From contig NC_083277.1 in assembly GCF_963506605.1 (NCBI RefSeq), positions 992,001 through 1,056,000 on the forward strand: 64,000 nt of DNA, in the 5' to 3' direction. Numbering within the stretch: position 1 is the first letter of the stretch; the number at the start of each line of letters is the position of its first letter. The notes below the pieces were generated by a model, which saw only the letters and a list, made by a program, of their open reading frames with translations, did not search any database and had not been told where the DNA came from. A program made the position numbers and the translations under genes. The stretch is from Zootoca vivipara. Taxonomy: Eukaryota. Positions 46,643 through 63,846 of the stretch are shown here, one piece after another.

Positions 46643-46684
46643 CCTGGAGACAGGCTGGTCATCGCCAGGGCGCTTTTTCATTGG
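46643..46684 (+). promoter_or_regulatory. MHC II alpha (copy 1) promoter X1-X2-Y module
   Basis: CCTGGAGACAGGCT-GGTCATC...(20 nt)...TTCATTGG; 120 nt upstream of the ATG. Confidence 0.72.
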
Positions 46685-46803
46685 CTGAGCTGGCAGGGAC
46701 TTTCCTGCTCCGCCAAAGCCGCCCCCTGGCCGCCCCCGCCCCACAGCCACTTGGAGGACGAGCATCCCCTTTTGGTGGTCGCCCCTCGGAGCGGGCTGCA
46801 GAG

Positions 46804-61100: not shown

Positions 61101-63846
61101 CTTGTCCCACATAGAGATTTCTCAGGAGACAGATGAGGTGATCAGGCACTCCCATTTCTTTAAGAACTTGCCATAGTTTGCTGTGGTCGACACAGTCAAA
61201 GGCTTTTGCATAGTCAATGAAGCAGAAGTAGACGTTTTTCTGGAACTCTCTAGCTTTCTCCATAATCCAGCGCATGTTTGCTATTTGGTCTCTAGTTCCT
61301 CTGCCCTTTCGAAATCCAGCTTGCACTTCTGGGAGTTCTCGGTCCACATACTGCCTAAGCCTGCCTTGTAGAATTTTAAGCATAACCTTGCTAGCGTGTG
61401 AAATGAGCGCAATTGTGCGGTAGTTGGAGCATTCTTTGGCACTGCCCTTCTTTGGAATTGGGATGTAGACTGATCTTCTCCAATCCTCTGGCCATTGCTG
61501 AGTTTTCCAAACTTGCTGGCATATTGGGTGTAGCACCTTAACAGCATCATCTTTTAAAATTTTAAATAGTTCAACTGGAATATCATCACTTCCACTGGCC
61601 TTGTTATTAGCAGTGCTTTCTAAGGCCCATTTGACTTCACTCTCCAAGATGTCTGGCTCAAGGTCAGCAACCACACTACCTGAGGTGTACGAGACCTCCA
61701 TATCTTTCTGGTATAATTCCTCTGTGTATTCTTGCCACCTCTTCTTGATGTCTTCTGCTTCTGTTAGGTCCTTACCACTTTTGTCCTTGATTATGGTAAT
61801 CTTTGTACGAAATGTTCCTTTCATATCTCCAATTTTCTTGAACAGATCTCTGGTTTTCCCCATTCTATTGTTTTCCTCTCTTTCTTTGCATTGCTCATTT
61901 AAGAAGACCCTCTTGTCTCTTCTTGCTGTTTTTTGGAAATCTGCATTCAGTTTCCTGTATCTTTCCCTATCTCCCTTGCATTTTGCTTGCCTCCTCTCCT
62001 CCGCTATTTGTAAGGCCTCGTTGGACAGCCATTTTGCTTTCTTGCATTTCCTTTTCCTTGGGATGGTTTTCGTTGCTGCCTCCTGTATAATGTTACGAGC
62101 CTCCATCCATAGTTCTTCAGGCACTCTGTCCACCAAATCTAAATCCTTAAATCTGTTCCTCACTTCCACTGTGTATTCATAAGGGATTTGATTCAGATTG
62201 TATCTTACTGGCCCAGTGGTTTTTCCTACTTTCTTCAGTTTAAGCTGGAATTTTGCTATAAGAAGCTGATGATCTGAGTTACAGTCAGCTCCAGGTCTTG
62301 TTTTTGCTGACTGTATAGAGCTTCTCCTTCTTTGGCTGCAGAGAATATAATCAATCTGATTTCGATGCTGCCCATTTGGTGAGATCCATGTGTAGAGTCG
62401 TCTCTTGTGTTGTTGGAAGAGAGTTTTTGTGATGACCAGCTTGTTCTCTTGACAGAACTCTATTAGCCTTTGCCCTGCTTCATTTTGAACTCCAAGGCCA
62501 AACTTGCCAGTTGTTCCTTTTATCTCTTGATTCCCTACTTTAGCAATCCAATCCCCTGTAATGAGAAGAACATCCTTCTTTGGTGTCATTTCTAGAAGGT
62601 GTTGTAGGTCTTCATAGAATTGGTCAATTTCACTTTCTTCAGCACCGGTAGTTGGTGCATAAACTTGGATTACTGTGATGTTAAAAGGTCTGCCTTGGAT
62701 TCGTATCGAGATCATTCTGTCATTTTTGAGATTGCATCCCATTACAGCTTTTGCCACTCTTTTGTTGACTATGAGGGCCACTCCATTTCTTCTACAGGAT
62801 TCTTGCCCACAGTAGTAGATATGATAGTCACCCGAACTGAATTCGCCCATTCCCTTCCATTTTAGTTCACTGATGCCCAGGATGTCGATATTTATTCTTG
62901 TCATGCTGAAAATAGGTATTTATTCTTGTCATGCTGAAAATGGGTTTTAATCCCATTTCTTTCTCAATCTCCTTCCTCAGTTGCTCCTTCGGCCACTGTG
63001 TACCCAGAAAATGCTGTGGAACTGGGGGACCCCAACATCCTCATCTGCTTTGTGGACAGGTTCTCCCCCCCAGTGCTGAACATCACCTGGCTGAAGAACA
63101 AGGAGGAGGTCTCCGAGGGCGTGGAGGAGACAGACTTCTACCCCAGCGTGGACAACACTTTCCGCAAGTTCTCCTACCTCCCCTTCGTCCCTGAGCAGGG
63201 AGACATCTACGTCTGCCAAGTGGAGCACTGGGGCATCCCAGAGGGAAAGATGGAGAAGACATGGGGTAAGCACCGGGCAGGATTGGGGCTTTTCTCTGGG
63301 ACTTAAATTCAGAAACCCAGATTCATAGCTTATAAGAAACACATTCTGATGATTGTGTTTTATGCAAATGAAGTACATTGGCACTTTTGAATATTTATTC
63401 TGGTCTTCCTAGCTGTAGGAGACAGTAAGGTGCTCAGCCCCCTTCAGGGGTTGCTCACTAAACAAATAAACAACATTGTATCTGACGAATTGTGCATGCA
63501 CACGAAAGCTCATACCAAAATAAAAACTTAGTTGGTCTTTAAGGTGCTACTGGAGGAATTTTTTTATTTTGTTTCGACTAAACAACAGTGTATTAAGGGC
63601 TGTGGGGCCTGCGTGCCAGGACTCCTGGGTTCTTTCTTCTGCTGAACGCACGCAAAGAAACAGAGTCCCTCCTTACCCCTGTCCTCTCTCTCTCTCCATC
63701 CCAGTTTCCAAGGCGCCCTCTCCCATCCCGGAGACGATGGAGAACGTGCTGTGTGCCCTGGGCTTGGCCTTTGGCATCCTGGGCATCATCGCTGGCACCA
63801 TCCTTTTCTTCAAGGCCATGAGGATGAATGGTCGCAGGGGCCTCAC
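58150..63846 (+). CDS. MHC class II alpha chain copy 2, intact frame (about 257 aa; last exon expected just beyond the window)
   Basis: Exons 58150-58234 (leader), 59496-59753 (alpha-1), 62981-63265 (alpha-2 Ig C1: PNILICFVDRFSPPVLNITW...YVCQVEHWG) and 63705-63846 (PETMENVLCALGLAFGILGIIAGT TM); GT-AG; introns 1-3 phase 1. Confidence 0.92.
60137..62904 (-). mobile_element. 5'-truncated BovB in alpha copy 2 intron 2, with two nonsense mutations
   Basis: ORFs 60958-62904 and 60289-60897 are in the same frame, separated by CAA>TAA; second stop at 60289; no TSD. Confidence 0.92.

What the first reader, a model, noticed from the sequence alone, without database searches (positions are those of the whole stretch)
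46643..63846. Two tandem MHC IIA copies with complementary defects: promoter without an intact Ig exon, and intact exons without a promoter
Seen: copy 1 has the X-X2-Y promoter and faces the beta gene, but lacks the first 110 nt of exon 3. Copy 2 has all coding exons in frame, but its homology to copy 1 stops about 65 nt above the ATG and no X/Y boxes occur in 57967-58150. The clean BovB TSD shows that insertion deleted nothing, so it did not remove the promoter. Both copies encode an identical alpha-1 domain. Inference: neither copy is a conventional self-sufficient gene. A read-through transcript splicing copy-1 exons 1-2 (phase 1) to copy-2 exons 3-5 would give a complete alpha chain, so the pair could act as one split gene. 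Alternatively copy 2 is driven by the distal module at 53.2 kb.
Basis: partly seen in the sequence, partly recalled or inferred. Interest (0 to 1): 0.78.

Follow-up and report, generated by a model that had tools for sequence, protein, structure and literature searches.

The report
Decaying lizard MHC alpha duplicates
Two neighbouring copies of a lizard immune gene (MHC class II alpha) are each damaged, one by a deletion and one by loss of its promoter, but an intact copy lies elsewhere on the chromosome, so they are most likely ordinary decaying duplicates, one of which likely makes a shortened message.

Summary
The anatomy is real, but the split-gene reading is not needed and is not shown. 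The genome holds four near-identical class II alpha genes. Copy 1 has a 244-nt deletion removing the exon-3 acceptor and about 110 coding bases. Copy 2 has an intact frame and arose by a ~12-kb tandem duplication whose breakpoint lies 97 nt above the ATG, leaving the X-Y promoter behind. Copy 3 has a stop in its leader. Copy 4, 0.85 Mb away, has promoter and frame intact. RNA from three other animals shows an in-frame exon 2-to-4 skip in 16 of 34, 7 of 57 and 0 of 215 junction reads; a public protein model equals that skip form of copy 1. Near the junction it differs from copy 4's own junction by one base, which varies among animals, so mis-mapping could produce it. No RNA or reads from this individual were available, so read-through is not excluded. 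Verdict: birth-and-death of redundant alpha genes. The frequent Ig-less transcript is the best lead.

The parts
45643..45748 (-). MHC IIB gene 1, leader exon (head-to-head partner; beta-1, beta-2 and TM exons open)
45865..45906 (-). X-X2-Y module of the beta gene
46643..46705 (+). Copy 1 promoter: X-X2-Y (46643-46684) and kappaB-like GGGACTTTCC (46696); X-Y identical in copies 3 and 4
   Evidence: motif names recalled
46804..46885 (+). Copy 1 exon 1 coding part (leader, phase 1)
47918..48175 (+). Copy 1 exon 2 (alpha-1 domain)
48776..48777 (+). Junction of a 244-nt deletion (exon-3 acceptor and about 110 coding nt lost; GC microhomology; leaves an out-of-frame acceptor-like site)
48777..48951 (+). 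Exon 3 remnant; five substitutions absent from copies 2-4 in its first 70 nt
49390..49531 (+). Copy 1 exon 4 (connecting peptide, TM, tail)
49705..50647 (+). Copy 1 exon 5 (last codon, stop, 3'UTR) with poly(A) hexamers at 49969, 50474, 50642; 3' end not mapped
53182..53816 (+). Distal element: X-X2-Y (53182-53223), kappaB-like site (53246), conserved block with two GGAANNGAAA motifs (53760, 53807); repeated at C2:1059.7k, 1914.4k, 1921.8k
   Evidence: function inferred
54712..57966 (-). Full-length BovB/RTE-type LINE (family name recalled), 1036-aa open frame, 13-nt TSD, inserted after the duplication
58053..58055 (+). Tandem-duplication junction (AGG microhomology): 3' flank joined to the alpha 5'UTR; unit runs to about C2:1062062
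58150..58234 (+). Copy 2 exon 1 coding part
59496..59753 (+). Copy 2 exon 2 (alpha-1)
60135..62904 (-). 5'-truncated LINE in intron 2 of copy 2, no TSD, replaces about 290 nt of intron; last 49 nt of the intron kept
62981..63265 (+). Copy 2 exon 3 (alpha-2, C1-set Ig), intact
63705..63846 (+). Copy 2 exon 4; exon 5 starts 20 nt beyond the window

Best explanation
Copies 1 and 2 are separately damaged duplicates of a near-invariant MHC class II alpha gene, and the intact copy 4 likely supplies the working alpha chain. Shown: a ~12-kb tandem duplication cut just below the promoter made copy 2; a 244-nt deletion removed copy 1's exon-3 acceptor; copy 3 has a leader stop; copy 4 is whole. Inferred: copy 1 is still transcribed from its promoter and splices exon 2 to exon 4 in frame, giving a 161-aa alpha-1/TM chain without the Ig domain, probably unstable; copy 2 is silent or weak; gene conversion keeps the copies alike in patches; redundancy lets the extra copies decay.
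For: Four alpha and three beta genes in G000. Copy 4 has promoter and frame intact and equals RefSeq P0034. Three further independent lesions: copy 3 TGA, beta-4 TAG, copy 1 deletion. Junction anatomy with microhomologies. Exon 2-to-4 GT..AG joint in 2 of 3 RNA runs: 16 of 34, 7 of 57, 0 of 215 reads leaving exon 2 by the listed joints, seen again on copy 1 (15 and 7 reads). Exon-4 allele counts in X21 fit skip reads coming from a copy-1/2-type exon 4 (unphased). P0001 (XP_034963790.1) equals copy 1's skip form exactly. Mosaic identity: copy 1 intron 1 closest to copy 3, intron 2 98% to copy 4, 3' half 99% to copy 2. A single IIA serving several IIB is described in birds (PMC10641522, passages).
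Against: RefSeq models the chimera, and no copy-2-alone protein was among those fetched (only 15 of 27 cluster members seen). The deletion was not seen in contigs of three other DNA samples, which showed the undeleted form (X1; X3, X7). The skipping animals have no matched DNA, so their skip reads may come from intact alleles. No copy-1 remnant alleles (0 of 13, 0 of 15, 0 of 32 reads in X21) and no cryptic-acceptor joint were listed. Copy 2's frame is undamaged although its flanks are 5-12% diverged from copy 1's. Copy 4's own beta partner is broken, so copy 4 must pair with beta genes 0.8 Mb away (inferred).
Confidence: 0.7

Rival explanations
1. Split gene: transcription from copy 1's promoter reads through about 17 kb and splices copy-1 exon 1 or 2 to copy-2 exons, supplying a meaningful share of full-length alpha chain.
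For: Both routes are in frame and give the 256-aa RefSeq model P0035. In X23, 211 of 315 reads carry the copy-2/3 base at exon 3 position 26 while about 110 carry copy-3 bases at positions 10 and 35, leaving about 100 reads compatible with this junction.
Against: The junction differs from copy 4's by that one base over 30+56 nt, so reads from intact alleles of other animals can mimic it; read-through callers discard paralog pairs for this reason (PMC11128028, passages). The splice must pass copy 1's intact exons 4 and 5 and three poly(A) hexamers; exon 4 to copy-2 exon 2 is out of frame. Copy 4 removes the need.
Confidence: 0.08
2. Copy 2 is an expressed gene on its own, started at a cryptic site near the junction and helped by the distal X-Y/kappaB element at 53.2 kb.
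For: Frame, splice sites, nearly all the 5'UTR and a poly(A) hexamer are intact. The module is a good X-X2-Y match 4.9 kb upstream (1.7 kb before the LINE inserted). Distal X-Y elements near HLA-DRA make low-level transcripts (PMC2292219, passages).
Against: No Y box within 650 nt of the ATG. The module is an ancestral flank element present four times. Copy-2 exon-2 markers (48084, 48174) were not among the 40 of 63 variant rows shown for X21/X22, though those animals may lack copy 2.
Confidence: 0.14
3. The duplication or the deletion is an assembly error (for example two haplotypes joined in tandem).
For: Neither junction was confirmed in reads; three DNA samples showed only undeleted contigs.
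Against: No N; junctions have 2-3 nt microhomology, not long overlaps; a LINE with TSD sits in one unit and its empty site in the other; substitutions private to copy 1 flank the deletion. A separate public model has copy 1's leader and lacks exon 3 (P0001; that it stems from another annotation is inferred from its source listing). Contigs drop rare variants.
Confidence: 0.05

Closest known systems
Classical MHC class II alpha genes (DRA-like; PF00993 + PF07654) of lacertid lizards
   Same: Five-exon layout, X-X2-Y promoter, head-to-head with a beta gene, alpha-1 identical to Podarcis and Lacerta chains.
   Different: In this haplotype three of four alpha copies and one of three beta copies carry a lesion.
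Birth-and-death plus concerted evolution of tandem IIA-IIB units (birds, mammals; PMC10641522, passages)
   Same: Duplicated units, patchy homogenisation, one alpha serving several betas.
   Different: Here a lone alpha was duplicated with the break just below its promoter.
Read-through (cis-spliced) chimeric RNAs (PMC11128028, passages)
   Same: Same-strand neighbours; an in-frame cross-gene junction is possible and is modelled by RefSeq (P0035).
   Different: The partners are paralogs, the class filtered out as mapping artefacts; no phased support here.
Domain-skipping MHC isoforms (HLA-G short isoforms and a short HLA-DRA form: recalled, not read; database models lacking alpha-2 in tortoise P0055, manatee DOA P0123, Podarcis muralis P0027)
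   Same: In-frame loss of all or part of an extracellular domain with the TM kept.
   Different: Here a genomic deletion of the acceptor would force the skip, and the skip reaches about half of junction reads in one animal; no protein evidence.
Distal X-Y elements of the human class II region (PMC2292219, passages)
   Same: Non-promoter X-Y boxes between class II genes.
   Different: The lizard element is repeated four times, each with a kappaB-like site; untested.

Membership tests
MHC class II alpha gene (copy 1) | alpha-1 domain PF00993 | tested here: met
   E 2e-26
MHC class II alpha gene (copy 1) | complete alpha-2 C1-set Ig exon with acceptor | tested here: not met
   244-nt deletion; profile positions 35-85 only
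MHC class II alpha gene (copy 1) | proximal X-X2-Y promoter | tested here: met
   (sequence only)
MHC class II alpha gene (copy 2) | leader, alpha-1, alpha-2, TM in one open frame | tested here: met
   257 aa
MHC class II alpha gene (copy 2) | proximal X-X2-Y promoter | tested here: not met
   no Y box in 57500-58150
MHC class II alpha gene (copy 2) | transcribed | tested here: inconclusive
Read-through chimera / split gene | same strand, adjacent, in-frame cross-gene junction | tested here: met
Read-through chimera / split gene | junction reads that cannot come from one intact paralog | tested here: inconclusive
   junction differs from copy 4 by one base that varies among animals
Read-through chimera / split gene | no intact single-gene source of the protein | tested here: not met
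   copy 4 intact
Domain-skipping MHC isoform | in-frame GT..AG skip junction in RNA | tested here: met
   2 of 3 runs
Domain-skipping MHC isoform | skip transcript assigned to the deleted copy | tested here: inconclusive
   no matched DNA, unphased counts
Domain-skipping MHC isoform | stable protein with a function | not testable with these tools
   needs protein work
Tandem duplication | junction joining unit end to unit start, colinear units | tested here: met

The most novel reading that the evidence does not exclude
A segregating deletion turns one lizard class II alpha gene into a dedicated producer of an Ig-less alpha chain (alpha-1 joined straight to the membrane anchor) at up to half of alpha mRNA, and this chain is stable and binds beta chains or the invariant chain, tuning antigen presentation between haplotypes. 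The split-gene read-through (about 0.08) is the other unexcluded novel reading.
Probability: 0.1. Interest if true: 0.68.

Novelty: new member of a known kind. Interest (0 to 1): 0.3.

Why it matters
As it stands it is a clean, fully resolved example of class II alpha turnover in a squamate, a poorly described group, and a warning that a public gene model here (P0035) may be stitched from two broken paralogs. It would matter more if the Ig-less transcript gives a working protein, or if read-through really rebuilds a full chain: either would be a new way to make or tune a class II molecule.

Tried and rejected
No RNA holder on record was listed for the copy-1 stretch; three raw RNA runs were added by species label, tissue unknown, about 6 in 100 of each read. 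Both read-laying runs went to copy 4 and copy 1, so the 58053 junction and copy 2 were not tested in reads. A protein search for copy 1's out-of-frame remnant peptide could not be run, as the frame is too short; the in-frame remnant found 12 representatives, none identical, best 95%. Reading the remnant's three amino-acid changes as decay: weak, since Thr and Lys at two of those positions occur in other reptile chains and the allele at 48833 occurs in other animals (6 of 28 reads). A split exon 3 hidden in copy 1's intron 2: rejected, the intron is colinear with copies 3 and 4 up to the deletion. BovB as cause of promoter loss: rejected. The loose X-Y pattern gives 0-5 chance hits per shuffled 134 kb against 9 observed, so only the homologous, equally spaced hits were kept (3 of 9 dropped). 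No fold or complex was predicted: a pass would reflect solved class II structures. PMC4136775 held none of five terms on exon usage. Paper searches listed nothing whose title or abstract start concerns lacertid class II alpha structure or exon-3 skipping; most subscription papers are not searched and no supplements were read. Two look-ups in earlier findings were empty.

Full report
Setting. The window is G000:C2:992001-1056000. Translations of the copies match RefSeq proteins labelled Zootoca vivipara letter for letter. Profile searches find four class II alpha-1 exons and three beta-1 exons, all on C2: beta1 / alpha1, alpha2, then beta3 / alpha3 about 28 kb on, and an inverted alpha4 / beta4 pair at 1.89 Mb.

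Observation. Copy 1 has X-X2-Y at 46643 and faces an open beta gene. Against copies 3 and 4 it lacks 244 nt: the end of intron 2 with the acceptor and 109-111 nt of exon 3, with GC microhomology. Copy 2 has an open 257-aa frame and no Y box in the 650 nt above its ATG.

How copy 2 lost its promoter. Sequence above 58055 copies the flank downstream of copy 2 (98% over 102 nt; 88-95% in blocks further up). Sequence below 58053 matches copy 4's 5'UTR (97% over 97 nt). The overlap is AGG. This is a tandem duplication of about 12 kb cut between promoter and ATG. RNA depth on copy 4 falls from 24 to 0.4 between the bins ending at 6527 and 6678 (X23), so the break lies near the start site (inferred). 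The full-length LINE came later: 13-nt TSD, with the empty site kept in the other unit. A second, truncated LINE replaced part of intron 2 but left the last 49 nt. The 53.2-kb X-Y module occurs four times in the class II regions, each with a kappaB-like site. It is an ancestral flank element, like the non-promoter X-Y boxes of the human locus (PMC2292219, passages seen). It could still act on copy 2.

Copy 3 has the promoter but a TGA in its leader exon. Copy 4 has promoter and frame intact and equals P0034. Beta 4 has a TAG in its Ig exon; beta 1 and beta 3 are open in the exons read. The alpha-1 domain is identical in 19 of 22 other fetched proteins that share its start motif, across three lacertid genera. 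One intact alpha can therefore plausibly serve the betas, as described for birds (PMC10641522, passages). The copies are mosaics: copy 1 is closest to copy 3 in intron 1, 98% to copy 4 in late intron 2 and 99% to copy 2 from mid-exon 3 on, while copy 2's intron 1 follows copy 4. This points to gene conversion (inferred) and means that intact exons are not proof of selection.

RNA. Three raw RNA runs from other animals of the same label were laid on copy 4; two of them also on copy 1. Tissue is unknown and about 6 in 100 of each run was read. Of reads leaving exon 2 by the listed joints, the exon 2-to-4 skip made up 16 of 34 (X21, 9 starts), 7 of 57 (X22, 4 starts) and 0 of 215 (X23, counting 51 reads of a variant allele); 15 of 53 joints were shown. 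The contrast is strong (Fisher 3e-16 and 1e-5; reads are not all independent molecules). The skip is in frame and gives 161 aa for copy 1, identical to P0001. In X21, 35 of 79 exon-4 reads carry the copy-4 base at position 26 and 19 of 79 the copy-3 base at 27, leaving about 25, against 27, 21 and 15 junction reads of the three kinds. This fits skip reads coming from a copy-1/2-type exon 4, but it is unphased. Against a firm assignment: these animals carry variants absent from this assembly (48053, 48163), have no matched DNA, show no copy-1 remnant alleles at three sites and no cryptic-acceptor joint. Contigs of three DNA samples showed only the undeleted form; contigs show presence, not absence.

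The read-through model. Over 30 nt of exon 2 and 56 nt of exon 3 the chimeric junction differs from copy 4's by one base, and 211 of 315 reads in X23 carry the chimera's base. Such reads could be real copy-2 exon 3 or alleles of intact genes; mapped to this assembly either would draw the long intron. Paralog pairs are filtered from read-through calls for this reason (PMC11128028, passages). Mechanically the splice must bypass copy 1's intact exons 4 and 5 and three poly(A) hexamers, and exon 4 to copy-2 exon 2 is out of frame. It is not excluded.

Comparison and novelty. Both copies belong to the DRA-like alpha family by domain, but each fails one defining feature of a working gene. The pair fails the 'no intact source' test for a split gene. 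Database models lacking alpha-2 exist for a tortoise, manatee DOA and Podarcis muralis; they are automated. Human short isoforms (HLA-G, HLA-DRA) are recalled only. PMC9679377 (passages) covers the anole MHC and does not mention this species. Searches listed no paper on this locus; only listings were seen for the rest and no supplements were read. That an alpha chain without its Ig domain is probably unstable rests on my own knowledge of class II assembly.

Verdict. Real anatomy, ordinary cause: duplication, conversion and decay of redundant alpha genes (0.70). Copy 2 expressed alone 0.14, meaningful read-through 0.08, artefact 0.05. Interest 0.3; the frequent Ig-less transcript is worth a phased long-read test.

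Noticed in passing
G000:C2:1078760-1078856 (L008): Copy 3 has an intact X-Y promoter but TGA in the leader exon; RefSeq models it as a 194-aa protein from an internal ATG (P0033).
   Followed up: partly
G000:C2:1904388-1904630 (L016): Beta 4, partner of the only intact alpha, has TAG in place of the conserved Trp codon of its Ig exon; every alpha-beta pair in this haplotype has a damaged member.
   Followed up: partly
window 53182-53816; C2:1059.7k, 1914.4k, 1921.8k: Repeated composite element: X-X2-Y, kappaB-like site, and a conserved block with GGAANNGAAA motifs (PU.1-IRF-like, recalled) found six times in the stretches fetched; looks like a lizard class II enhancer.
   Followed up: partly
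G000:C5:12876862-12877094 (L020): Intronless alpha fragment spanning the exon 2/3 junction, 78% identity: a processed pseudogene piece.
   Followed up: yes
window 54723-57953; C2:1066257-1069487; window 60135-62904, 38350-39275: Young LINE copies 98-99% alike, two full length with a 1036-aa open frame, all within the class II cluster.
   Followed up: partly
window 54700-54720: The LINE landed at a strong acceptor-like site (pyrimidine run, CAG) and parted it from the sequence leading to copy 2's exon 1.
   Followed up: no
L015:4774-4779, run X23: About 50 reads show a likely in-frame 6-nt deletion near the end of exon 2, an allele absent from this assembly.
   Followed up: no
window 10731-12724 and 26263-29072; further on C2:1083k-1126k: Long open frames with 84-nt periodic repeats, likely C2H2 zinc-finger arrays interleaved with the class II genes (not scanned).
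   Followed up: no
G000:C2:1414335 and 1421240: Two further C1-set exons between the class II clusters, possibly DM-like genes.
   Followed up: no
window 49150-49265: Palindromic high-copy element in intron 3 shared by copies 1 and 2, absent from copies 3 and 4.
   Followed up: partly
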